Assembly (NCBI RefSeq): GCF_054482525.1
Contig: NZ_CM137006.1
Reading direction: 5' to 3' (one strand)
DNA: 64,000 nucleotides
In this document: in pieces, positions 5,643-36,209 of the stretch
Layout of the letters: each line of letters begins with the position of its first letter
Position numbering within the stretch: position 1 is the stretch's first letter
The notes under the pieces: model-generated
The model's database searches: none
What the model was told of the DNA's origin: nothing
What the model saw: the letters and a program-made list of their open reading frames with translations, nothing else
Program-made: the position numbers and the translations under genes

Positions 5643-6328
5643 ATAACCAGTATTTACAGTTTGTGCGTGAGCAGCTCATTATCGCCACCGCTGATTTGAG
5701 TGGGGCAACAAAAGGTCAGCTTGAAGCCTGGCAAGAGAATGCCATGTTCGATACAGGGCGTTACAGGCGAAAAAAAATCCGGTACCGCGATGAAGTGACT
5801 GGAAAAATGATAACGCGGGATAATCCACCAATCCCGGGAAAGCAATCGCTGGCGAAGGGGACGTCAATTCCTCTGGTCAGTCCGGTTGAGTTTTCGACAT
5901 CATCGTGGCGGCGGGCTGTTTTGTCTCTTGAAGAACATCATAAAGCCTGGTTGTTGTGGTGTTACAGCGGGAGTATTTGTTGGGAATATCAGATCGCGAT
6001 AACACAGTGGGCGTGGAATGAATTTAATACTCAATCCGGTACCAGAAAAATTGCAGGGAAAACGCAGGAACGCCTGAAAAAATTAATCTGGCTGGCGGCG
6101 CAGGCAGTAAAAGCAGAACTTTTTGGTGGGGAAGGTTATGAATACCAGGAGCTGGCATTACTGGCGGGAGTGACAACTAAAAACTGGTCCAAAACATTTA
6201 CTCGTCACTGGGTTGCAATGAAACACATTTTTCACCGACTTGATAGTGAGGCTTTATTGTTTGTAATGAGAACACGTTCAAAACAAAAGGCGGCATTTTC
6301 AAAGCAAAGTATTGCAAAAGTAGATTGA
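5633..6328 (+). CDS. Putative late-gene antiterminator (Q-like)
   Basis: 231 aa directly downstream of rusA and upstream of a terminator, tRNA cluster and lysis genes; assignment by position only. Confidence 0.45.
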   Translation: MRMNNQYLQFVREQLIIATADLSGATKGQLEAWQENAMFDTGRYRRKKIRYRDEVTGKMITRDNPPIPGKQSLAKGTSIPLVSPVEFSTSSWRRAVLSLEEHHKAWLLWCYSGSICWEYQIAITQWAWNEFNTQSGTRKIAGKTQERLKKLIWLAAQAVKAELFGGEGYEYQELALLAGVTTKNWSKTFTRHWVAMKHIFHRLDSEALLFVMRTRSKQKAAFSKQSIAKVD

Positions 6329-6522: not shown

Positions 6523-6598
6523 GGCCCTTTAGCTCAGTGGTGAGAGCGAGCGACTCATAATCGCCAGGTCGCTGGTTCAAATCCAGCAAGGGCCACCA
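6523..6598 (+). tRNA. tRNA with CAT anticodon (Ile2/Met-type)
   Basis: 76 nt cloverleaf ending CCA; anticodon loop CTCATAA; close to E. coli ileX as recalled. Confidence 0.7.
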
Positions 6599-6599
6599 G

Positions 6600-6676
6600 C
6601 CGCCACTAGCTCATCAGGAAAGAGCGTCAACCCTTTAAGTTGAGTGTGCGAGGTTCGAGTCCCCGGTGGCGGTCCA
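6600..6676 (+). tRNA. Atypical tRNA-like gene (anticodon loop CCTTTAA, UUU with C33); possibly non-canonical or pseudo-tRNA
   Basis: 77 nt; acceptor CCGCCAC/GTGGCGG plus T-CCA; D-arm GCTC/GAGC; T-loop TTCGAGT; one A-C mismatch in T-stem. Confidence 0.4.
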
Positions 6677-6678
6677 GT

Positions 6679-6754
<76 letters not shown>

Positions 6755-6757
6755 TAT

Positions 6758-6832
<75 letters not shown>

Positions 6833-24697: not shown

Positions 24698-27600
24698 ATG
24701 GGTAAAGGCAGCAGTAAGGGGCATACCCCGCGCGAAGCGAAGGACAACCTGAAGTCCACGCAGTTGCTGAGTGTGATCGATGCCATCAGCGAAGGGCCGA
24801 TTGACGGTCCGGTGGATGGATTAAAAAGCGTGCTGCTGAACAGTACGCCAGTGCTGGACACTGAGGGGAATACCAACATCTCCGGCGTCACGGTGGTGTT
24901 CCGGGCAGGTGAGCAGGAGCAGACTCCGCCGGAGGGGTTTGAATCCTCCGGCTCCGAGACGGTGCTCGGTACAGAAGTGAAATATGACACGCCGATCACC
25001 CGGACCATCACGTCGGCAAACATTGACCGTCTGCGTTTTACTTTCGGCGTGCAGACACTGGTGGAAACCACCTCAAAGGGGGACAGGAATCCGTCGGAAG
25101 TCCGCCTGCTGGTTCAGATACAGCGTAACGGTGGCTGGGTGACGGAAAAAGACATCACCATTAAGGGCAAAACCACCTCGCAGTATCTGGCCTCGGTGGT
25201 GGTGGGTAACCTGCCGCCGCGCCCGTTTAATATCCGGATGCGCAGGATGACGCCGGACAGCACCACAGACCAGCTGCAGAACAAAACGCTCTGGTCGTCA
25301 TACACCGAAATCATCGATGTGAAACAGTGCTACCCGAACACGGCACTGGTCGGCGTGCAGGTGGACTCGGAACAGTTCGGCAGTCAGCAGGTGAGCCGTA
25401 ATTATCATCTTCGCGGGCGCATTCTGCAGGTGCCGTCGAACTATAACCCGCAGACGCGGCAATACAGCGGTATCTGGGACGGAACGTTTAAGCCAGCATA
25501 CAGCAACAACATGGCCTGGTGTCTGTGGGATATGCTGACCCATCCGCGCTACGGCATGGGGAAGCGTCTCGGTGCGGCGGATGTGGACAAATGGGCGCTG
25601 TATGTCATCGGCCAGAATTGCGACCAGTCGGTGCCGGATGGCTTTGGTGGCACGGAGCCGCGCATCACCTGTAATGCCTGGCTGACCACACAGCGTAAGG
25701 CGTGGGATGTTCTCAGTGATTTCTGCTCGGCGATGCGCTGTATGCCGGTATGGAACGGGCAGACGCTGACGTTCGTGCAGGACCGACCATCAGATAAGGT
25801 GTGGACCTATAACCGCAGTAATGTGGTGATGCCGGATGATGGCGCGCCGTTCCGCTACAGCTTCAGCGCCCTGAAGGACCGCCATAATGCCGTTGAGGTG
25901 AACTGGATTGACCCGAACAACGGCTGGGAGACGGCGACAGAGCTTGTTGAAGATACGCAGGCCATTGCCCGTTACGGTCGTAACGTCACGAAGATGGATG
26001 CCTTTGGCTGTACCAGCCGGGGGCAGGCACACCGCGCCGGGCTGTGGCTGATTAAAACGGAACTGCTGGAAACGCAGACCGTGGACTTCAGCGTGGGCGC
26101 AGAAGGGCTTCGCCATGTACCGGGCGATGTCATTGAAATCTGTGATGATGACTATGCCGGTATCAGCACCGGTGGTCGTGTGCTGGCGGTGAACAGCCAG
26201 ACCCGGACGCTGACGCTCGACCGTGAAATCACGCTGCCATCCTCCGGTACCACGCTGATAAGCCTGGTTGACGGAAGTGGCAATCCGGTCAGCGTGGAGG
26301 TTCAGTCCGTCACCGACGGCGTGAAGGTAAAAGTGAGCCGTGTTCCTGACGGTGTTGCTGAATACAGCGTATGGGGGCTGAAGCTGCCGACGCTGCGCCA
26401 GCGCCTGTTCCGCTGTGTGAGTATCCGGGAGAACGATGACGGTACGTATGCCATCACCGCCGTGCAGCATGTACCGGAAAAAGAAGCCATCGTGGATAAC
26501 GGGGCGCACTTTGACGGCGACCAGAGCGGCACGGTGAATGGTGTCACGCCGCCAGCGGTGCAGCACCTGACCGCCGAAGTCACCGCAGACAGCGGGGAAT
26601 ATCAGGTGCTGGCGCGATGGGACACGCCGAAGGTGGTGAAGGGCGTGAGCTTCCTGCTTCGCCTTACCGTGGCAGCGGACGACGGCAGTGAGCGGCTGGT
26701 CAGCATGGCCCGGACGACGGAAACCACATACCGCTTCAGGCAACTGGCGCTGGGGCGTTACACGCTGACGGTCCGGGCGGTAAATGCGTGGGGGCAGCAG
26801 GGCGATCCGGCATCGGTATCGTTCCGGATTGCGGCACCGGCAGCGCCTGTCACTATTGAACTGATACCAGGGTATTTTCAGATAACAGCGGTCCCGAAAC
26901 TGGCTGTATATGACCCGACGGTGCAGTTTGAGTTCTGGTTCTCGGAAACGCGGATTACCGATATCAGGCAGGTTGAAACCACAGCCCGCTACCTTGGCAC
27001 GGGGCTGTACTGGATAGCCGCCAGTATCAATATCAAACCGGGCCATGATTATTACTTTTATATCCGCAGTGTGAACACCGTTGGCAAATCGGCATTCGTG
27101 GAGTCCGTCGGTCGGGCGAGCGATGATGCGGAAGGTTACCTGGATTTTTTCAAAGGCAAGATAACCGAATCCCATCTCGGCAAGGAGCTGCTGGAAAAAG
27201 TCGATCTGACGGAGGATAACGCCAGCAGACTGGATGAGTTTTCGAAAGAGTGGAAGGATGCCAACGATAAATGGAATGCCATGTGGGCTGTCAAAATTGA
27301 GCAGACCAAAGACGGCAAACATTATGTCGCGGGTATTGGCCTCAGTATGGAGGACACGGAGGAAGGCAAACTGAGCCAGTTTCTGGTTGCCGCTAACCGT
27401 ATCGCGTTTATTGACCCGGCAAACGGGAATGAAACGCCGATGTTTGTGGCGCAGGGCAATCAGATATTCATGAACGACGTGTTCCTGAAACGCCTGACGG
27501 CCCCCACCATTACCAGTGGTGGAAATCCACCGGCATTTTCCCTGACACCGGATGGGCGGCTGACGGCGAAAAATGCCGATATCAGCGGTAACGTGAATGC

Positions 27601-28093
27601 GAACTCCGGGACGCTCAACAACGTCACGATTAACGAGAACTGTCGGGTTCTGGGAAAACTGTCCGCGAACCAGATTGAAGGCGATCTCGTTAAAACAGTG
27701 GGCAAAGCTTTCCCCCGGGACTCCCGTGCACCGGAACGGTGGCCATCAGGGACCATTACCGTCAGGGTTTATGACGATCAGCCGTTTGACCGGCAGATTG
27801 TTATTCCGGCGGTGGCATTCAGCGGCGCTAAACATGAGAGAGAGCATACTGATATTTACTCCTCATGCCGTCTGATAGTGCGGAAAAACGGTGCTGAAAT
27901 TTATAACCGTACCGCGCTGGATAATACGCTGATTTACAGTGGCGTTATTGATATGCCTGCCGGTCACGGTCACATGACGCTGGAGTTTTCGGTGTCAGCA
28001 TGGCTGGTAAATGACTGGTATCCCACTGCGAGCATCAGCGATTTGCTGGTTGTGGTGATGAAGAAAGCCACTGCAGGCATCACTATTAGCTGA
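24698..28093 (+). CDS. J: Host specificity / central tail fibre protein J
   Basis: 1131 aa; lambda J-like size and position. Confidence 0.9.
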
Positions 28094-28160: not shown

Positions 28161-28760
28161 ATGCGTAAATTATGTGCTGTTATTCTGTCCGCAGTAGTCT
28201 GGCTGGTTGCCGCTGGTACGCCAGCGAGCGCAGCAGAGCATCAGTCCACACTAAGCGCCGGGTATCTTCAGACCCATACTGATATGCCAGGCAGCGATGA
28301 CCTGAAGGGCATTAATGTGAAATACCGTTATGAATTTACGGACACGCTGGGGCTGGTGACGTCATTCAGTTATGCCAATGCCAAAGATGAGCAAAAAACG
28401 CATTACAGCGATACCCGCTGGCATGAAGATTCAGTGCGTAACCGCTGGTTCAGCATGATGGCGGGGCCATCTGTACGCGTGAATGAATGGTTCAGTGCTT
28501 ATGCGATGGCAGGTGTGGCTTACAGCCGTGTTTCGACTTTTTCCGGGGATTATCTCCGCGTAACTGACAGCAAGGGGAAAACGAACGATGTGCTGACCGG
28601 AAGTGATGATGATCGCCACAGCAACACGTCTCTGGCGTGGGGAACTGGCGTGCAGTTTAACCCGACCGAATCCGTGGCCGTTGATATTGCTTATGAAGGT
28701 TCCGGCAGTGGCGACTGGCGCACTGACGGTTTCATCGTGGGTGTCGGTTATAAATTCTGA
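28161..28760 (+). CDS. lom: Lom-like outer membrane protein (Ail/Lom family)
   Basis: 199 aa; signal peptide, beta-barrel pattern, C-terminal GVGYKF. Confidence 0.8.
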   Translation: MRKLCAVILSAVVWLVAAGTPASAAEHQSTLSAGYLQTHTDMPGSDDLKGINVKYRYEFTDTLGLVTSFSYANAKDEQKTHYSDTRWHEDSVRNRWFSMMAGPSVRVNEWFSAYAMAGVAYSRVSTFSGDYLRVTDSKGKTNDVLTGSDDDRHSNTSLAWGTGVQFNPTESVAVDIAYEGSGSGDWRTDGFIVGVGYKF

Positions 28761-28818: not shown

Positions 28819-31224
28819 GTGGATATGGCAGCAGTAAAAATCTCAGGTGTGCTGAAAGATGGTGCGGGAAAACCAATACAGAACTGCACTATTCAACTGA
28901 AGGCAAAGCGTAACAGCACCACGGTACTGGTGAACACGGTGGCCTCTGAAAATCCGGATGAAGCCGGGCGTTACAGCATGGATGTTGAGTATGGCCAGTA
29001 CAGCGTCATCCTGCTGGTTGAAGGTTTTCCGCCTTCACATGCCGGGACCATTACCGTCTATGAAGGCTCCAGACCAGGTACGCTGAATGATTTTCTCGGT
29101 GCCATGACGGAAGATGATGTCATGCCGGAGGCATTGCGTCGTTTTGAGGAAATGGTGGAAGAAGCGGCACGCAACGCTGAAGCCGCCTCTCAGAGCGCAG
29201 CGGCGGCAAAGAAATCAGAAACTGCAGCGGCATCATCGAAGAACGCGGCGAAAACCTCAGAAACGAATGCAGCTAACAGCGCACAGGCGGCAGCGGCCTC
29301 ACAGACTGCATCAGCAAACTCCGCGACAGCAGCCAAAAAATCAGAAACCAACGCGAAAAATAGCGAGACAGCCGCAAAGACGAGCGAAACCAACGCAAAG
29401 TCCAGCCAGACGGCAGCGAAAACCAGCGAAACGAATGCCAAAGCCAGTGAAACTGCGGCAAAAAACAGCCAGGTTGCAGCAGCCCAAAGCGAGAGCGCGG
29501 CAGCCGGTTCTGCGACTTCAGCAGCTGGATCAGCAACTGCTGCGGCTAACAGCCAGAAAGCTGCGAAGACGAGTGAAACTAACGCAAAGTCCAGCCAGAC
29601 GGCAGCGAAGACCAGCGAAACGAATGCCAAAGCCAGCGAAACTGCGGCGAAAAACAGTCAGGATGCAGCAGCCCAAAGCGAGAGTGCTGCAGCTGGTTCT
29701 GCAAGCGCGGCGGCTGCTTCTGCCACTGCATCAGCCAACAGTCAAAAAGCAGCAAAAACCAGTGAAACCAATGCAAAGACAAGCGAGACTGCAGCGGCGA
29801 ACTCGGCGAAAGCATCGGCAGCAAGCCAGACAGCAGCTAAAGCAAGTGAAGACGCAGCCAGAGAGTATGCAAGTCAGGCAGCAGAGCCGTATAAATATGT
29901 CTTACAGCCACTGCCTGATGTGTGGATACCGTTTAACGATTCACTGGATATGATTACGGGCTTTTCGCCGTCATATAAAAAAATTGTTATTGGTGATGAT
30001 GAAATAACGATGCCTGGCGACAAGGTTGTTAAGTTTAAACGCGCATCAACTGCCACATATATCAATAAATCAGGCGTATTTAGTGTTGCTAAAATTGATG
30101 AGCCACGATTTGAAAAAGAAGGTTTATTGATTGAAGGACAGCGCACTAACTATTTTGTTAAATCCAATACTCCCGCTGAATGGACGAGTACCAGCAATAT
30201 CGATAAAACTAATAATGGTGTTGATGAATTTGGTTTTTCATATGCCAAAATGCGAACAAAAGATAATATGACAGGACAATCATCTGCACTTAGTCTGCAT
30301 ACATGCAGTGCATCCCGGGGGATTGATGTTAGTGGCGATAATAAGTATTGCACTGTTTCATGCAGGGTTAAAGCTCCTGATGGTCTTCGTTGTCGTTTGC
30401 GTTTTGAAAAATACGATGGGTCGGTTTATACATTTTTAGGAGATGCTTATTTAACTTTCGGAACTCTGATAATAGAAAAAACTGGCGGAGCAGCCAATAG
30501 AATAGCAGCTACTGCAACTAAAGATCCGGTTACAGGGTGGATTTTCTATGAGGCAACTATAGAAGCTGTTGAAGGTGAAACCTTAATTGGCGCAATGATT
30601 CAGTATGCGCCGAAAAAAGGTGGTATAACTGAAGCGGGAGATTATATTTACCTTGCAACACCACAATTTGAAAACGGCGGATGTGCTTCATCTTTTGTTA
30701 TTACGACAACTGCACCCGCAACCCGCTCCAGTGATATGGTGACGATCCCAACTGAAAATAATATCTATAATAGACCGCTTACGTGTCTTGTCGAGGTTAA
30801 TAGAAATTGGGGCGATATTCCTCCTAATGTAGCACCGCGTATTTTTGATTTTTCTGGTGTGCCACCTATTGAGTCAATTACATACGCTTTTAACACAACT
30901 GAGAAATATTACGGTCAGCTTTATATGCAGACTTATAAAGCGTCGACAAGTACTTACGTTTCTAGTGTGTTTGCTGGTCGAACTGATGTTCGAAAATTCA
31001 TTGGTGGTTTTAATATTTATTCTGATGGTACTAAACGAGTAGTTTCTAACGGTGAGGCTACTAAAACTATGAAAACGGAGTGGACGGGCGTAAAAACACG
31101 GACCTTTATTCGAATTGGAGGTCAAGCCACATCGGGAACTCGTCATCTATTCGGCCATTTGAGAAATCTTCGTCTCTGGCATAAAGAATTAACTGATGCG
31201 CAAATGGGGGAGAGTATTAAATGA
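28819..31224 (+). CDS. stf: Side tail fibre protein (Stf-like) with Ala/Ser/Thr repeat stalk
   Basis: 801 aa; N-terminus like lambda Stf as recalled; central KTSETNAKxSxTAA repeats. Confidence 0.8.
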   Translation: MDMAAVKISGVLKDGAGKPIQNCTIQLKAKRNSTTVLVNTVASENPDEAGRYSMDVEYGQYSVILLVEGFPPSHAGTITVYEGSRPGTLNDFLGAMTEDDVMPEALRRFEEMVEEAARNAEAASQSAAAAKKSETAAASSKNAAKTSETNAANSAQAAAASQTASANSATAAKKSETNAKNSETAAKTSETNAKSSQTAAKTSETNAKASETAAKNSQVAAAQSESAAAGSATSAAGSATAAANSQKAAKTSETNAKSSQTAAKTSETNAKASETAAKNSQDAAAQSESAAAGSASAAAASATASANSQKAAKTSETNAKTSETAAANSAKASAASQTAAKASEDAAREYASQAAEPYKYVLQPLPDVWIPFNDSLDMITGFSPSYKKIVIGDDEITMPGDKVVKFKRASTATYINKSGVFSVAKIDEPRFEKEGLLIEGQRTNYFVKSNTPAEWTSTSNIDKTNNGVDEFGFSYAKMRTKDNMTGQSSALSLHTCSASRGIDVSGDNKYCTVSCRVKAPDGLRCRLRFEKYDGSVYTFLGDAYLTFGTLIIEKTGGAANRIAATATKDPVTGWIFYEATIEAVEGETLIGAMIQYAPKKGGITEAGDYIYLATPQFENGGCASSFVITTTAPATRSSDMVTIPTENNIYNRPLTCLVEVNRNWGDIPPNVAPRIFDFSGVPPIESITYAFNTTEKYYGQLYMQTYKASTSTYVSSVFAGRTDVRKFIGGFNIYSDGTKRVVSNGEATKTMKTEWTGVKTRTFIRIGGQATSGTRHLFGHLRNLRLWHKELTDAQMGESIK
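29180..29860 (+). repeat. In-frame tandem repeats within stf, including a direct duplication of about 120-190 bp
   Basis: gcaaagtccagccagacggcagcgaa... occurs at about 29395 and again at about 29581; many shorter related units. Confidence 0.7.
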
Positions 31225-31502
31225 AAGATTTAACACTCAAATTTGCAGACAGGGCCGACTTTTCGGCCTTTATGGAGAGCATTGGCTATTATGATGACGA
31301 GTCGATGCAGGATGATATTCTTATTGACGTGATAGGTAATGTGTACAAAGAAACCGGAGAACTTACTGAAGATGGCGAGCCGGTATGTGTTAAGGAGGAC
31401 GGATATTTTGTAAACGTGCGCATCATTAATGATTCGCAAATATCGTCATTATTCGATGAATACGCGGTTGCTGTTGAGCATCAACTTCGTGGCTGGATGT
31501 GA
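31221..31502 (+). CDS. Hypothetical acidic protein between the two fibre genes
   Basis: 93-aa ORF whose start overlaps the stf stop. Confidence 0.35.
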   Translation: MKDLTLKFADRADFSAFMESIGYYDDESMQDDILIDVIGNVYKETGELTEDGEPVCVKEDGYFVNVRIINDSQISSLFDEYAVAVEHQLRGWM

Positions 31503-31511
31503 GGAAGGAAA

Positions 31512-32552
31512 ATGGCTACATCGACAGTAATTCCTGATGATATCAAAACGCTAAAATCCGACGTTAGCAAATTAAAAAACGATCAAGGGAGCTACGCAAC
31601 AAAATCATATGTAGACAATAAAACAACATGGAATAGTTATTGCAATGTAATCTATGATCAAAAGACATTGCCGACCACTGGAACTATATTTAGCGGTAAG
31701 ATTCACTTGTCAAATAAGACAGGAGAAACCGAAAACGCTTATAGTGAGATGTACACCAGAAAAAATATTGACGGTACAAAAGATACAATGACAAGGATTG
31801 TCACACACAATGGAACAAAAGGTATCTTTTGGGATTTTAGCGATCTTTACGGCGGAACATTAATTTTTCCAGGCAGTGATGGTTACCTTAAGATGGGGAA
31901 CTGTCTCATGTCGTATGGTGTGCGGGGAAGTAACGCGCTTATTAAGTTTGACTGCACAGACACATTACAAATCAAATATGCCAATCATGGGTCAACCATG
32001 ACATTAAACACACAGGGGACCGCTCATTCTGGCGCTACTACTAGTTTGTGGGGTAACTCTACCCGTCCGGTTGTATATGAAGTTGGTGCTGATGGTGGCG
32101 CGTATATGTTCTATGCGCAGAAAAATACCGATAACACCTATATGTTAAGCGTTAATGGTGCATGTCATGCCACCGCATTTAACCAGCATTCCGACCGGGA
32201 TCTGAAAGACAACATTCAGGTGATCGATAATGCAACCGACCGCATCCGTAAAATGAACGGCTATACATACACGCTTAAAGAAAACGGTATGCCCTATGCA
32301 GGTGTCATTGCACAGGAAGCTCTGGAAGCAATCCCAGAAGTTGTAGGTTCCGCAATGAAATATCAGGACGGTGCAAGCGGATCGGAAGGTGAAGAAGGTG
32401 AACGTTATTACACAGTAGATTATTCTGGTGTTACTGGCTTGCTTGTTCAGGTAGCCAGAGAGTCAGACGACAGAATAACAGTACTGGAAGAAGAAAACGC
32501 AGAATTAAGGCAAAGATTATCTGCAATTGAGGCGACGCTTGCGTCTAAATAA
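31512..32552 (+). CDS. Second tail fibre/spike-like protein with C-terminal intramolecular chaperone (peptidase S74-like) domain
   Basis: 346 aa; C-terminal DRDLKDNIQVID...RIRKMNGYTYTLK...GVIAQEA plus terminal coiled coil. Confidence 0.6.
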   Translation: MATSTVIPDDIKTLKSDVSKLKNDQGSYATKSYVDNKTTWNSYCNVIYDQKTLPTTGTIFSGKIHLSNKTGETENAYSEMYTRKNIDGTKDTMTRIVTHNGTKGIFWDFSDLYGGTLIFPGSDGYLKMGNCLMSYGVRGSNALIKFDCTDTLQIKYANHGSTMTLNTQGTAHSGATTSLWGNSTRPVVYEVGADGGAYMFYAQKNTDNTYMLSVNGACHATAFNQHSDRDLKDNIQVIDNATDRIRKMNGYTYTLKENGMPYAGVIAQEALEAIPEVVGSAMKYQDGASGSEGEEGERYYTVDYSGVTGLLVQVARESDDRITVLEEENAELRQRLSAIEATLASK

Positions 32553-32587
32553 TATTAAGGGCTATGCGCCCCGTTTTATTGGGTAGG

Positions 32588-32881
32588 ATGAAAATGGATA
32601 TAACACCTTTTCTTCATGCGCTTTGTGCTGTGGCTGCGCAGGTACTGGTTGGTTTTTTTACCGGAAACTGGGCTTACGGGGCGATAGCCGGTTGTACATT
32701 CTTCATTGCGCGGGAACACACCCAGGCAGAATATCGCTGGATTGAAATGTTCGGGCATGGCAAGCGGATTAACATGCCGTGGTGGGGCGGTTTTGATCCA
32801 CGTGCATGGGATGTGGCAAGCCTGATGGATTTTGCTGTGCCGGTGGTGGCGTGTCTGCTGATCTGGATGTTGATCCGTTAA
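32588..32881 (+). CDS. Hypothetical membrane protein at prophage right end
   Basis: ORF 32564-32881; two hydrophobic segments; followed by a hairpin at about 32900-32935. Confidence 0.3.
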   Translation: MKMDITPFLHALCAVAAQVLVGFFTGNWAYGAIAGCTFFIAREHTQAEYRWIEMFGHGKRINMPWWGGFDPRAWDVASLMDFAVPVVACLLIWMLIR

Positions 32882-33228
32882 ATATAAAAAGTAAAAAGCC
32901 GCAGTAACTTGTCATGATAGGATACTGCGGCTGGCTGGTTAACTTTCGATAGTGCGAGTATTGAATGATTTCCAGCCGTTACCGATTTTATATAACTGCA
33001 GTGGAATTATTCAACACACAGGCAAAACGGAATAAGCTGAGAAAAAAGCGTGCTTACCCAATCTGGGGTAAATCACGTCTGAATGACACCTGAAAACAGG
33101 TGGTGGCCTCAAGAAGGCTTGGAATATTCTTCTTTAATGTTATGTAATTTATTGATTTTTCGTGTACGATTTTAAGACATTTATTCCAAGAAAAATTTTT
33201 AACTCTTTGATTTTTCGACTCTGTATCA

Positions 33229-33290
33229 TCGGTCTCGAAAACCGGAGTAGGGGCAACTCTACCGGGGGTTCAAATCCCCCTCTCTCCGCC
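33229..33290 (+). other. Prophage right attachment site: 3' 62 nt of tRNA-Ser (serU-like), not a complete tRNA
   Basis: cggtctcgaaaaccggagtaggggcaactctaccgggggttcaaatccccctctctccgcca matches the 3' part of tRNA-Ser(CGA) as recalled; 5' half absent. Confidence 0.7.
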
Positions 33291-33960
33291 ACTTTATCAA
33301 TGACTTATCTCCCGACTTCCCGCCTTGCTTTTCCTAAACAGAACAATCGTAGAATATTCTTGAAGGGTTAGATCGTCACTGTTTTCTGTTCGATACTGTG
33401 ACATTCAGCACTTGATTCGCTATGGATCTGACAGGAAGGTCTCGAGCGAAAATCTGCAGTTATTCAGTCGTTTTCTTATCGGTCACCATTATTCTTTTAG
33501 ACATTGATCCTACGAAGCTGCCGCAAAGTTGGTGGTGGGAACTGAATTTGCGTAGAGAAGGGGTCAATAATTGAGCCAAAAAAGGAACGCGGCCGTCAGA
33601 TTAAAGCCGCGGGACAAAGTCCATAATTTCCAAGAGTTGTTGAATTTCCCAGCTTTTTTGAAAGCCTTTGTATCATACTAACAAGTAAAAAAGGTTTAAA
33701 TACCAAAATTAACCTATATTTCTGGTTAGCTTTACCATGACAGATGACTTGCTCCTGGAGACATTGGCGCAGCCAGTCTGTATTGGTGAGTTGTGTATTT
33801 ATTGTTCGCCGTTTTCTCAGTTTTTTTCTACAGACATAATAAAAAAGACACGTCTCAAGCATGAGCGTGTCTGAGTTTGTCTTATTTATTTGTCTTGGTA
33901 AATTATTGTCGTTACTACCAGGCACTGTTCTGTTAAATAATTGAAGTCAGCGCAAAAAAA

Positions 33961-34611
33961 TCAATGAGACATCATTTCCTCGACCACTTCTTCGCTACTC
34001 AACTGATATGGATAATACGTTGGCCAGTTTTCCATTTCATTTAATAAAGATTGCTGTGAATCATTACCCATAAAAATGTGAAAATGAGATGATTTTCGTG
34101 GTGCAATTATATGATCGCTAAATTGTATATATTTAGGGGCTTTGCTTTTAGGATCTTTACATTCGAATAAGTAACGAACGCCTTTCTTGCCTGATTTATA
34201 GGTGAGTATTTTGTATCCATCGTAATCATATTTACAGGATGTTGTTTCATTATTTCTATGGAATTCAACAATGCCGTCCTCAATGCCAATCATCTCGATA
34301 TCTGTCACATAACCTTTGCGATAATAATCTTTAATTTCAGCAAATGTTTTAGTTTTATCTGCATCCGCTTTCTTCTGAAAGACGGGGTCAAGTTTGCCAC
34401 TTTGCAGTAAAGGATAAACGGATTGCCAGACTCCATCCCAGTCACTGAGCGTTCGGTTTTGTACATTGGCATCATCAAAAACACCATTAGCAGCTTTTTG
34501 TTCGACCTCTGTTAAGGGTTTGCCGTGTGAGTGATGACCATGCGAAAAGGCAGGAGCGCTAACAATAAAGACACCTAAAGCAACAGCCAGTTTATGAAGA
34601 CGAATCGCCAA
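33961..34611 (-). CDS. zinT: Metal-binding protein ZinT
   Basis: 216 aa; signal peptide and His-rich HGHHSHG motif; synteny with msrQP. Confidence 0.85.
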
Positions 34612-34819: not shown

Positions 34820-35574
<755 letters not shown>

Positions 35575-35678
35575 ATCAGCATACTTGTCCTTAGCCTTCT
35601 GCAGTGACAGCTGGTAGTACAGCGTGCTTCTGGCCAGCCCTGCAGCCTTTAACAGGTCAGACTGGCAGTGTCCGCACC

Positions 35679-36209
35679 TCAGGCTCCGGATGACTTTCGT
35701 TTTTTCTCCAGCTCCTGGCGCTTTTTTTCCAGGAGATGCTCCTGCATGGCTTTCAGATATGCATTTTCTGCGCGAAGATAACGCAGCTCATTCTTCATCT
35801 CTTCCGGCGTCATGTTTGCCTCGTTTTCATGGGTATCATCAGAACGGGTCATGCTTTTCTCCTTCCTGCGCCTGATAAAGGCCTCATTACCAGATTTGCG
35901 GTAGCCTTTTATCCAGTTTTTAACCGTGTTGTGGCTGGGAATGTTAAACCGGGCAGCTACCCGGGGTAGAGACTCAGAATGCCCGAGAGCATAAAGAACC
36001 ACGCAAAGTTTATCTTCAGGAGAATAGCTACGCTTGTGTCTGCAATCCAGTGCCCGAGGACCGTGAAGAAGAAAAAGATTAATCCAGTGTGAGAGGCTGG
36101 TGTGAGAAAGTTGAAAGAGTTTTGCCGTAGAAATGATGCCTGCATGACCAGCCAGGTAATGATTTACAGCGGCAAGTTTTACTTCAAATGAATGTTTCAT
36201 AAACTGCAC
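35679..36209 (-). CDS. IS3-family transposase OrfA (HTH)
   Basis: 176 aa with HTH N-terminus and leucine-zipper-like C-terminus. Confidence 0.8.
   Translation of the reverse strand: MQFMKHSFEVKLAAVNHYLAGHAGIISTAKLFQLSHTSLSHWINLFLLHGPRALDCRHKRSYSPEDKLCVVLYALGHSESLPRVAARFNIPSHNTVKNWIKGYRKSGNEAFIRRRKEKSMTRSDDTHENEANMTPEEMKNELRYLRAENAYLKAMQEHLLEKKRQELEKKRKSSGA

What the first reader, a model, noticed from the sequence alone, without database searches (positions are those of the whole stretch)
31221..32881. Right-end fibre module: acidic small ORF, second fibre with S74-type chaperone domain, small membrane protein
Seen: where lambda has tfa after stf, this prophage has a 93-aa acidic ORF, a 346-aa protein whose C-terminus resembles the self-cleaving intramolecular chaperone of fibres and endosialidases, and an approximately 98-aa membrane protein followed by a hairpin just before the att site. 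Inference: an exchanged receptor-binding module; the terminal membrane protein is in the classic right-arm cargo position.
Basis: partly seen in the sequence, partly recalled or inferred. Interest (0 to 1): 0.35.

Follow-up and report, generated by a model that had tools for sequence, protein, structure and literature searches.

The report
Modular second tail-fibre locus, lambdoid prophage
The three genes are real and form the outer end of a common, mix-and-match side-tail-fibre locus of E. coli lambda-like prophages: a small partner protein of the main fibre, an optional second receptor-binding fibre that folds with a self-cleaving chaperone domain, and a highly conserved small membrane protein of unknown function that is switched on with the fibre genes, not in the dormant prophage.

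Summary
Window 31221-32881 holds three intact genes. They lie after a lambda-Stf-like fibre and about 350 bp before the serU attachment site.

- **The 346-aa protein** has a Peptidase_S74 chaperone domain (Pfam E=6e-14, Ser227/Lys232 dyad).
- **The module is common.** It occurs in 630 of 5,426 complete E. coli genomes and in the plaque-forming phage Tritos.
- **The middle gene is an exchangeable cassette.** It is absent, about 230 aa or 346 aa, with at least three tip alleles, between conserved flanks. All forms share the N-terminal peptide MATSTVIPxDIxxLK.
- **The 93-aa acidic protein** is the constant partner of this Stf C-terminal domain. It is found in temperate and virulent coliphages and in Comamonas prophages, so it probably replaces Tfa.
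- **The 95-aa membrane protein** is under purifying selection and has a very confident three-helix model. It matches no known family. It sits just after receptor-binding genes in temperate sipho-, podo- and myoviruses, and is a core chromosomal gene in Aeromonas.
- **Published RNA-seq of homologues** shows late co-expression or silence, not lysogen expression, so the "cargo" reading is only positionally right.

The finding is mostly ordinary. The membrane protein and the small partner are modest open leads.

The parts
28825..31224 (+). Context: primary side tail fibre (Stf-like, about 799-801 aa). It has a lambda-Stf N-terminal anchor, an Ala/Ser/Thr-rich repeat shaft and a lectin-like C-terminal domain.
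   Evidence: PF08400 phage_tail_N E=6e-67 at residues 5-134. phrog_1419 over the full length and phrog_5939 over residues 370-798. NCBIfam GTA_spike_fiber E=1.6e-15 at residues 437-637. Weak hit to the RcGTA head spike fibre 6tb9. PGAP start taken from W46.
31221..31502 (+). orf93: small acidic protein (pI 4.05). It is the constant partner of this Stf C-terminal domain type and a probable fibre assembly or tip accessory factor standing in for Tfa.
31512..32552 (+). fib346: secondary receptor-binding fibre. Sub-parts are a conserved N-terminal peptide (residues 1-20, nt 31512-31571), a tip domain (residues ~39-226, nt 31626-32189) and an S74 intramolecular chaperone (residues 227-346, nt 32190-32549). 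The predicted self-cleavage site is Ser227 (nt 32190-32192).
   Evidence: Pfam PF13884 E=6.4e-14. phrog_4563 over residues 1-346 of 346. The tip plus chaperone aligns with the C-terminal ends of 1210- and 1567-aa fibres (phrog_6578, phrog_5668). The profile hits S16 gp37 (6f45, E=5e-7) and MYRF ICA (7dc3, E=9e-6). S227, R229 and K232 are invariant, as are 10 of the first 15 residues (M1 A2 T3 T5 I7 P8 D10 I11 L14 K15).
32559..32580 (+). Short GC hairpin followed by GUUUUAUU, between the fib346 stop and the mem95 start. It is a degraded copy of a terminator-like element that travels with the 346-aa cassette.
   Evidence: At least 18 long-cassette loci carry GGGGC-CGAGC-GCCCC + GUUUUAUU. The window copy keeps a 4-bp stem and is not better than shuffles (z=-0.13). 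Short-cassette and phage-21-type loci instead have AAGGAGG directly upstream of mem95. TRITO_22 is not induced when TRITO_19-21 are.
32594..32881 (+). mem95: 95-aa three-helix inner-membrane protein (PHROG 1443) with a near-invariant segment AREHTQAEYRWI...GKRxNMPWWGGFDxRxW. Function unknown.
   Evidence: phrog_1443 E=2e-57. 576 90%-identity clusters and 435 50%-identity clusters. 24 invariant columns. AlphaFold2 pLDDT 97.8. No Pfam, NCBIfam or PADLOC hit. dN/dS 0.05-0.27. GC 52% against 42% for the two upstream genes.
32897..32932 (-). Stem-loop with a 10-bp outer stem. Its U-tract (UUUUUACUUUUU) is on the minus strand, so it is a probable terminator for leftward transcription entering from the b-region or host side.
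   Evidence: Folding -21.4 kcal/mol on the + strand and -17.4 on the - strand, z -3.6 and -4.0. No T-run follows it on the + strand. Conserved, with paired substitutions, downstream of mem95 in other prophages.
33230..33291 (+). attR core: a duplicated 3' portion of tRNA-Ser (serU).
   Evidence: Aligns with the intact serU beside the integrase of the W46 prophage, with 2 paired differences. ARAGORN finds no complete tRNA here. zinT follows at 33961-34611.

Best explanation
Window 31221-32881 is the distal part of a widespread, modular side-tail-fibre locus of E. coli lambdoid phages.

1. **Primary fibre.** The upstream Stf anchors to the tail through its lambda-type N-terminal domain. It ends in a lectin-like domain of the 'head-spike-fibre' type rather than a Tfa-dependent tip. 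This is shown by domain hits.
2. **orf93.** It is translationally coupled to stf and is that domain's constant small partner. I infer that it assists folding or assembly of the Stf tip, or stays bound to it, and so takes the place of Tfa.
3. **fib346.** This is an optional second receptor-binding protein.
   - Its invariant about 15-residue N-terminal peptide is inferred to dock it onto the primary fibre or orf93, giving a two-component or branched fibre.
   - Its tip domain is homologous to the C-terminal tips of long tail fibres.
   - By homology with endosialidase, T5 pb1 and MYRF, the C-terminal S74 domain trimerises the tip and then cuts itself off at Ser227 using Lys232.
   - Recombination between the conserved flanks swaps tips. 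The left flank is orf93 plus the N-terminal peptide. The right flank is the S74 C-terminus plus mem95. The cassette polymorphism is shown.
4. **mem95.** This is a conserved three-helix inner-membrane protein that closes the receptor-binding gene block in temperate phages. I infer N-out/C-in topology with the conserved Trp-rich loop facing the periplasm. It is expressed with the late genes, not in the lysogen. My best guess is an envelope-level role during lytic growth, such as limiting re-adsorption or DNA entry, or altering a surface glycan. This last step is conjecture.
For: - **Genes are real and intact.**
- **S74 membership.** Pfam 52.4 bits against a cut-off of 22. The profile hits the solved S74/ICA domains 6f45 and 7dc3. 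S227, R229 and K232 are invariant across six divergent homologues.
- **Viable phages carry the same four-gene block.** Tritos, a plaque-forming LF82 prophage imaged by electron microscopy, has it. 630 of 5,426 complete E. coli genomes carry at least 80% of the three-gene stretch.
- **Cassette polymorphism between conserved flanks.**
- **orf93 is tied to the Stf C-terminal domain.**
  - It is present with phrog_5939-type domains in phage 21 and Perceval, which have no second fibre.
  - It is also present in virulent KarlJaspers and ESCO3, and as a remote homologue (phrog_18574) after a separate phrog_5939 protein in Comamonas prophages.
  - Its start overlaps or abuts the stf stop in all loci examined.
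- **mem95.**
  - Adjacent to receptor-binding genes in sipho-, podo- and myovirus temperate phages.
  - Absent from the virulent KarlJaspers and ESCO3 loci.
  - Late or lytic expression pattern of PERCE_24 and GALLYPH_17.
Against: - No experiment or complex model shows that fib346 is a virion component or where it docks.
- No branching domain was found in Stf. Pfam gave only phage_tail_N and CarboxypepD_reg.
- Most cassettes (about 47 of 80) are the short 227-234-aa form with no obvious receptor-binding domain. The BASEL authors annotated the KarlJaspers homologue as 'putative lateral tail fiber chaperone'.
- mem95 is a syntenic core chromosomal gene in Aeromonas. It is more than 80% identical next to quite different receptor-binding proteins, which argues against a receptor-specific role.
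- In the cassette type found here its homologue TRITO_22 was transcriptionally silent.
- The W46 copy of this prophage has a frameshifted integrase, so this particular prophage may be defective.
Confidence: 0.6

Rival explanations
1. The S74-domain protein is not a fibre. It is a trans-acting chaperone that helps the primary Stf fold, as the BASEL annotation 'putative lateral tail fiber chaperone' implies.
For: - The commonest variants (227-234 aa) consist only of the N-terminal peptide, a short coiled-coil, a small beta region and the S74 domain.
- The KarlJaspers homologue is annotated that way.
- The gene always lies in the Stf operon.
Against: - Characterised S74/ICA domains act in cis on the segment immediately N-terminal to them. 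This is established knowledge for endosialidase, T5 pb1 and MYRF, and the matching solved domains appear.
- The 346-aa form carries an extra domain of about 135-150 aa that aligns with the distal tips of 1210- and 1567-aa fibres.
- Phage 21, Perceval and about 10 of 80 prophage loci have homologous Stf and orf93 but no such gene. It is therefore not required for Stf.
Confidence: 0.15
2. mem95 is classical right-arm cargo. On this reading it is a lysogenic-conversion or superinfection-exclusion gene expressed from the prophage to protect or alter the lysogen.
For: - It is the last gene before att.
- Its GC content is 52%, against 42% for its neighbours.
- It occupies the same slot as P22 gtr (tailspike to int in Gally) and P2 Z/fun (after the fibre assembly gene in phiHAP-1). 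Those two slot identities are from my own knowledge of P22 and P2.
- It is present in temperate phages but absent from the two virulent relatives examined.
- It is a membrane protein, like many exclusion factors.
Against: - Published LF82 RNA-seq shows that none of the three homologues passes the authors' moron threshold in the lysogen.
- Two of them follow the adjacent late genes, and one is silent.
- No promoter-like site lies in the 41-nt gap upstream.
- There is no PADLOC hit.
- Near-identical copies sit beside unrelated receptor-binding proteins.
- It is a vertically inherited core gene in Aeromonas.
Confidence: 0.2
3. mem95 is a lysis-related protein, holin-like or a lysis regulator. It has three transmembrane helices and about 95-105 aa, as class I holins do.
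For: - In Comamonas and Acidovorax prophages it lies directly upstream of a small membrane protein, an endolysin and Rz/Rz1-like genes.
- It shows a late expression pattern.
- One family member gave a marginal Phage_holin_8 hit (E=0.0036).
Against: - The E. coli prophage has its own holin, endolysin and Rz cassette about 24 kb upstream. W46 annotation shows a class II holin, RrrQ and Rz1.
- mem95 lacks the charged C-terminal tail typical of holins.
- Its loop is far more conserved than holins usually are.
- It is a core gene in Aeromonas.
Confidence: 0.1
4. The module is a decaying, non-functional remnant at the edge of a defective prophage.
For: - The integrase is frameshifted in the near-identical W46 prophage.
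- Only about 350 bp lie between mem95 and att, with a pseudogene scrap in between.
- The hairpin upstream of mem95 is degraded here.
Against: - All three ORFs are full length against their PHROG profiles.
- mem95 is under purifying selection.
- The same block occurs in plaque-forming Tritos and in 630 complete genomes.
Confidence: 0.05

Closest known systems
Peptidase S74 / intramolecular chaperone (ICA) domains of phage fibres and spikes: K1F endosialidase, T5 L-shaped fibre pb1, S16/T4-like gp37, and human MYRF
   Same: C-terminal domain with a Pfam PF13884 match. A Ser-x4-Lys dyad at the domain boundary. A following helical coiled-coil. A position directly after a fibre tip domain.
   Different: The carrier is only 346 aa and has no tail-anchoring domain of its own. 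It is encoded as a separate gene after a complete Stf. Cleavage itself is untested.
Lambda Stf-Tfa side tail fibre (also P2 H-G and Mu S-U)
   Same: The same locus position after J and lom. The same Stf N-terminal anchor domain, PF08400. A small protein is encoded immediately after the fibre gene.
   Different: The Stf C-terminus is a different, lectin-like ('head spike fibre') domain. The small protein, orf93, has no sequence or fold similarity to Tfa. Two extra genes follow.
Two-component or branched receptor-binding systems: T5-like DT57C LtfA/LtfB, IrisVonRoten proximal fibre plus T-shaped RBP with IMC (PMC11990801), and Klebsiella KP32-type RBP1 branching domain plus RBP2 docking peptide (PMC13352976)
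   Same: A secondary receptor-binding protein without its own virion anchor. It has a short, strongly conserved N-terminus and a variable tip, and is encoded next to a primary fibre.
   Different: No T4gp10-like branching domain was detected in Stf. A small acidic protein lies between the two fibre genes. The interaction is inferred only.
Receptor-gene-adjacent accessory genes of temperate phages: P22 gtrABC, P2 Z/fun, phi80/N15 cor, T5 llp
   Same: mem95 occupies the same genomic slots. These are after the tailspike and before int in Gally, after the fibre assembly gene in phiHAP-1, and after the fibre genes in lambdoids.
   Different: No homology to any of them. The expression pattern of homologues is late or lytic rather than lysogenic. 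It is also a core chromosomal gene in Aeromonas.

Membership tests
Peptidase S74 / intramolecular chaperone auto-processing domain (PF13884) | Match to the family profile above the curated threshold | tested here: met
   52.4 bits against a gathering score of 22, E=6.4e-14, residues 227-278 covering profile positions 1-57 of 58.
Peptidase S74 / intramolecular chaperone auto-processing domain (PF13884) | Catalytic Ser-Lys dyad (Ser, then Lys five residues on) at the N-terminal boundary of the domain | tested here: met
   S227-D-R-D-L-K232. S227, R229 and K232 are invariant in an alignment of six homologues down to 20% identity. They align with the SDR..K motifs of 6f45 and 7dc3.
Peptidase S74 / intramolecular chaperone auto-processing domain (PF13884) | C-terminal location after a trimeric fibre or spike domain, followed by a helical bundle | tested here: met
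   The domain is the last 120 residues. Residues 148-343 align with the C-terminal ends of the phrog_6578 and phrog_5668 fibres. The C-terminal coiled-coil region aligns with 6f45. Trimer state was not modelled.
Peptidase S74 / intramolecular chaperone auto-processing domain (PF13884) | Autoproteolytic release of the chaperone after folding | not testable with these tools
   Needs protein expression with an S227A control or virion mass spectrometry.
Lambda-type Stf + Tfa fibre system | Stf N-terminal tail-attachment domain (PF08400) in the fibre gene after J/lom | tested here: met
   Upstream 801-aa protein, E=6e-67. None of the three genes of the finding carries this domain.
Lambda-type Stf + Tfa fibre system | A Tfa / Caudo_TAP family assembly protein encoded after stf | tested here: not met
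   No Pfam or NCBIfam hit for orf93, and no Tfa family hit for fib346 or mem95. The orf93 fold has no chaperone neighbour.
Branched / two-component receptor-binding protein systems | Secondary RBP lacks a virion anchor but has a conserved N-terminal docking peptide and a variable distal part | tested here: met
   Of the first 15 residues, 10 are invariant across six homologues, including one from a virulent Drexlerviridae phage. The same peptide heads the 227-, 234- and 346-aa variants in 66 loci. The tip is 64-99% identical.
Branched / two-component receptor-binding protein systems | Primary RBP carries a recognisable branching or attachment domain for the secondary RBP | tested here: inconclusive
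   No T4gp9/10-like or other branching domain in Stf by Pfam. The last 40 Stf residues are conserved at 52-100% regardless of whether a second fibre gene is present. No complex prediction was possible.
Moron / lysogenic-conversion cargo (for mem95) | Autonomous expression in the lysogen (own promoter, transcript above prophage background) | tested here: not met
   By proxy from published RNA-seq of homologues. PERCE_24, GALLYPH_17 and TRITO_22 are all below the authors' moron cut-off in LB. Two of them co-vary with the adjacent late genes. No promoter-like site lies upstream in the window. This strain itself was not measured.
Moron / lysogenic-conversion cargo (for mem95) | Compositionally distinct insertion at a module boundary | tested here: met
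   GC 52% against 42% for orf93 and fib346. Last gene before att.
Class I holins (for mem95) | Three transmembrane helices, about 95-110 aa, a charged cytoplasmic C-terminal tail, and location in a lysis cassette | tested here: not met
   Three helices and 95 aa are met. There is no C-terminal tail, since the protein ends at the third helix plus Arg. In E. coli it lies about 24 kb from the lysis cassette. It is adjacent to lysis genes only in Comamonadaceae.

The most novel reading that the evidence does not exclude
mem95 (PHROG 1443) defines an unrecognised family of late-expressed inner-membrane proteins. They have a near-invariant, probably periplasm-facing Trp-rich loop. Temperate sipho-, podo- and myoviruses of several proteobacterial orders keep the gene immediately after their receptor-binding genes, and Aeromonas keeps it as a core gene. 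On this reading it acts on a conserved envelope step during lytic growth, for example by blocking re-adsorption or DNA entry, or by modifying a lipid-linked glycan. Alongside it, orf93 would be a new class of fibre-tip accessory or chaperone that replaces Tfa for lectin-type Stf tips.
Probability: 0.25. Interest if true: 0.55.

Novelty: new member of a known kind. Interest (0 to 1): 0.3.

Why it matters
The practical value lies in annotation and engineering.

- **A natural swap site.** The conserved flanks mark where receptor-binding tips of lambdoid phages are exchanged. These flanks are orf93 plus the N-terminal peptide on one side, and the S74 C-terminus plus mem95 on the other. That is useful for host-range prediction in the roughly 12% of complete E. 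coli genomes that carry the module, and for designing chimeric lambda-type delivery particles.
- **Two named candidates.** Two widespread 'hypothetical proteins' now have concrete, testable roles.
  - orf93 appears to be the Tfa substitute for lectin-type Stf tips across temperate and virulent coliphages.
  - mem95 is a very strongly conserved small membrane protein linked to receptor-binding genes across phage morphotypes. No function has been reported for it.

Nothing here overturns current understanding.

Tried and rejected
- **Family searches for orf93 and mem95.** Pfam, NCBIfam and PADLOC gave nothing for either protein. A Pfam scan of 96 diverse mem95 relatives gave only scattered marginal hits.
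- **Sequence searches against solved structures.** orf93 and mem95 returned only chance-level hits.
- **Structure searches.**
  - The afdb50 library was unavailable.
- **Profile search of 1.84 billion representatives with the mem95 alignment.** It found only small stand-alone relatives of about 63-146 aa. There were no fusions to informative domains.
- **Co-variation of orf93 type with the Stf C-terminus or the second fibre's N-terminus.**
  - Identity to the Stf C-terminus is not tightly coupled to orf93 type.
  - The 89-aa variant always pairs with MVTKTVIP instead of MATSTVIP. The two sequences are only 10 nt apart, so simple linkage explains this.
- **Stf C-terminal tail as a docking site.** I rejected this because the tail is equally conserved in phages that lack the second fibre.
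- **The search for related loci with the diverse alignment A4.** It failed for lack of a conserved stretch, so A1 was used instead.
- **Literature searches.** I found no study of this module. The searches covered lambdoid Stf with S74, the ECOR13 prophage papers and phage 21.

Full report
**Setting**

The window carries the late region and right end of an E. coli lambdoid prophage.
- J is at 24698-28093, lom at 28161-28760 and an Stf-like fibre at 28819/28825-31224.
- The prophage is inserted in tRNA-Ser serU. Window ~33230-33291 matches the 3' 62 nt of serU, with two paired differences. ARAGORN finds no complete tRNA there, and zinT follows.
- In strain W46 this stretch is 100% identical. There the intact serU lies beside a frameshifted integrase at the other prophage end, next to mtfA.

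**Checking the observation**

The three ORFs exist as described.

- **orf93 (31221-31502).**
  - It is acidic (pI 4.05), has a good Shine-Dalgarno sequence, and starts with an ATGA overlap on the stf stop.
  - It matches phrog_1361 at E=5e-46.
- **fib346 (31512-32552).**
  - It is full length against phrog_4563 'tail fiber protein'.
  - It has a Pfam Peptidase_S74 domain well above threshold: 52.4 against 22 bits, residues 227-278.
  - The Ser227-x4-Lys232 motif is present.
  - A profile of six homologues hits the solved S74/ICA domains of phage S16 gp37 (6f45, E=5e-7) and human MYRF (7dc3, E=9e-6).
- **mem95.**
- It most likely starts at 32594 (95 aa), which is PGAP's choice. Homologues start MD, and AGGA lies 8 nt upstream.
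- **Hairpin (32897-32932).** It is real, but its U-tract lies on the minus strand.
- **No Tfa.** No Tfa-family protein is present.

**How common the module is, and how it varies**

- Some part of the 1.66-kb stretch occurs in 1,899 of 5,426 complete E. coli genomes. At least 80% of it occurs in 630.
- The same four-gene block (stf, orf93, 346-aa fibre, membrane protein) is in phage Tritos. Tritos is an LF82 prophage that forms plaques and has been imaged as a siphovirus (PMC9928086).
- I examined 80 IMG/VR prophage loci retrieved through mem95. The gene between the small ORF and mem95 falls into these classes:

| Middle gene | Approximate number of loci |
|---|---|
| 227-234 aa | 47 |
| 345-346 aa | 17 |
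| Absent (phage-21 type) | 10 |
| Truncated | a few |

- All middle-gene forms share the N-terminal peptide MATSTVIPxDIxxLK, or MVTKTVIP in one lineage. All end in an S74 domain.
- The long form equals the short form plus an insert of about 135-150 residues. That insert, together with the S74 domain, aligns with the C-terminal ends of 1210- and 1567-aa fibres (phrog_6578, phrog_5668).
- The tip varies from 64 to 99% identity, while the S74 part stays at 87-98% and mem95 at 91-100%.

This pattern is what a recombinational receptor-binding cassette between conserved flanks looks like.

**The small acidic protein belongs with Stf**

orf93 homologues directly follow Stf-type genes in several settings:
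- phage 21 and Perceval, which have no second fibre;
- the virulent Drexlerviridae phage KarlJaspers and the Nonagvirus ESCO3;
- many other T1-like phages.

A divergent 89-aa variant fills the same slot in loci where BLAST first missed it.

In Comamonas prophages the arrangement is split across separate genes. A 401-aa protein matches phrog_5939, the same profile that covers residues 370-798 of the window's Stf. It is followed by a 95-188-aa protein matching phrog_18574, which orf93 also hits, and then by a mem95 homologue.

The constant association is therefore between orf93 and this lectin-like Stf C-terminal domain. That domain also matches NCBIfam GTA_spike_fiber and weakly matches RcGTA 6tb9.

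**The second fibre**

- By homology, the S74 domain should promote trimerisation of the segment before it and then release itself at Ser227.
- The protein has no tail-anchor domain. The invariant N-terminal peptide is therefore the obvious candidate for docking onto the primary fibre or onto orf93.
- This resembles secondary receptor-binding proteins in T5-like phages (PMC11990801) and in Klebsiella podophages (PMC13352976).
- I could not test the interaction. Pfam finds no known branching domain in Stf.
- The rival view holds that this protein is a trans-chaperone for Stf, as annotated in KarlJaspers. That view is weakened because phage-21-type phages keep homologous Stf and orf93 without it. 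The abundance of short forms keeps the rival alive.

**The membrane protein**

*Conservation and structure*
- The family is large: 576 clusters at 90% identity and 435 at 50% identity. Members are always small and stand-alone.
- Conservation is striking. There are 24 invariant columns, concentrated in AREHTQAEYRWI...GKRxNMPWWGGFDxRxW.
- The AlphaFold2 model is exceptionally confident (pLDDT 97.8, three helices).
- Nothing informative matches it in Pfam, NCBIfam, PADLOC, PDB or BFVD.
- Basic C-terminal tails in many homologues suggest N-out/C-in topology, with the conserved loop in the periplasm. This is inference.

*Genomic context*

Its context is the most telling feature. It lies immediately after the receptor-binding genes in several kinds of temperate phage:
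- lambdoid siphoviruses;
- the P22-like podovirus Gally, between the tailspike and int, 82% identical;
- the P2/VP882-like myovirus phiHAP-1, overlapping the fibre-assembly gene stop, 40% identical;
- Comamonas and Acidovorax siphoviruses, between the fibre genes and a holin-like/endolysin/Rz block.

It is absent from the virulent KarlJaspers and ESCO3 loci. In five Aeromonas species it is a syntenic chromosomal gene with no phage neighbours.

*Expression of homologues*

Published LF82 RNA-seq (PMC9928086 tables S1/S4) bears on the 'cargo' reading.
- PERCE_24 (91% identical) and GALLYPH_17 are at background in the overnight LB lysogen. They rise together with the neighbouring fibre or tailspike genes.
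- TRITO_22 stays at background while TRITO_19-21 rise by 6-8 log2 units.
- The authors list none of the three among morons.

*The element upstream of mem95*
- The long cassette carries a GC hairpin plus UUUUAUU and a weaker Shine-Dalgarno sequence just before mem95. Short and phage-21-type loci have AAGGAGG there instead. This fits the drop in Tritos.
- In the window this hairpin has decayed to a 4-bp stem.

mem95 is thus a real, conserved gene in a cargo-like slot. The available evidence points to late expression, or none, rather than lysogenic conversion. Its function is unresolved. An envelope-level role during lytic growth is my best guess, with low confidence.

**The hairpin before att**

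- The stem-loop at 32897-32932 is preceded by AAAAAGUAAAAA on the + strand and followed by no U-run. On the minus strand it therefore reads as hairpin plus UUUUUACUUUUU.
- It is conserved downstream of mem95 in other prophages, with paired substitutions. A second class of downstream sequence has the same A-run-plus-hairpin layout.
- In phage 21 and Perceval the leftward sitABCD operon ends right there.
- It is best read as the terminator of leftward b-region transcription. In this prophage almost the whole b region is missing.

**Verdict**

It needs correction on three points:
- the role of the small ORF, which is a partner of Stf;
- the nature of the membrane gene, which is not lysogen-expressed cargo in its homologues;
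- the orientation of the hairpin.

The module is common and already annotated in outline ('tail fiber domain-containing protein', 'hypothetical protein'), so interest is modest. The two uncharacterised partner families are the only real leads.

Noticed in passing
window 6523-6832: Four clustered tRNA genes inside the prophage, between the Q antiterminator and the holin. ARAGORN calls them Met(CAT), Lys, Thr and Gly. PGAP annotates the first as tRNA-Ile in strain W46.
   Followed up: no
window ~34852-36209: An IS3-family element (two overlapping transposase ORFs on the minus strand) sits between zinT and msrQ. It is absent at this spot in strain W46. Conversely, W46 has an IS200/IS605 tnpA between lom and stf that the window lacks.
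   Followed up: partly
L092 16009-17176 (W46 prophage left end): The integrase of the near-identical W46 prophage is annotated as frameshifted, next to the intact serU. This prophage lineage may be unable to excise. The window does not include that end.
   Followed up: no
window 32922-32990: PGAP annotates a 69-nt 'capsid protein' pseudogene scrap in the ~350-bp gap between mem95 and attR. This suggests that the b region was deleted or replaced.
   Followed up: no
window 29100-29950, both strands: The Ala/Ser/Thr/Lys-rich repeat shaft of Stf (residues ~115-350) produces many long overlapping ORFs in other frames and on the opposite strand. These are artefacts of the repeat composition.
   Followed up: no
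L009 6896-7486 (Tritos); also HannyBb: Some phages with this fibre module carry a PinR-type DNA invertase just downstream of the membrane gene. I did not examine whether it inverts any fibre segment. There is no invertase in the window.
   Followed up: no
L005, L095, L097, L098, L101 (Aeromonas chromosomes), match at ~5940-6310: The mem95 homologue is a conserved chromosomal gene between a pirin gene and a RIO1-type kinase, near two lipid A acyltransferase genes, in five Aeromonas species. No phage genes are nearby.
   Followed up: partly
BFVD hit A0A6B9XIW9 (Escherichia phage anhysbys); phrog_34165: Fragments of mem95 of 42-46 aa, covering only the C-terminal half, exist as separate small ORFs or PHROG families in some phages. 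tblastn also finds unannotated partial matches in several virulent or jumbo phages. They may be remnants.
   Followed up: no
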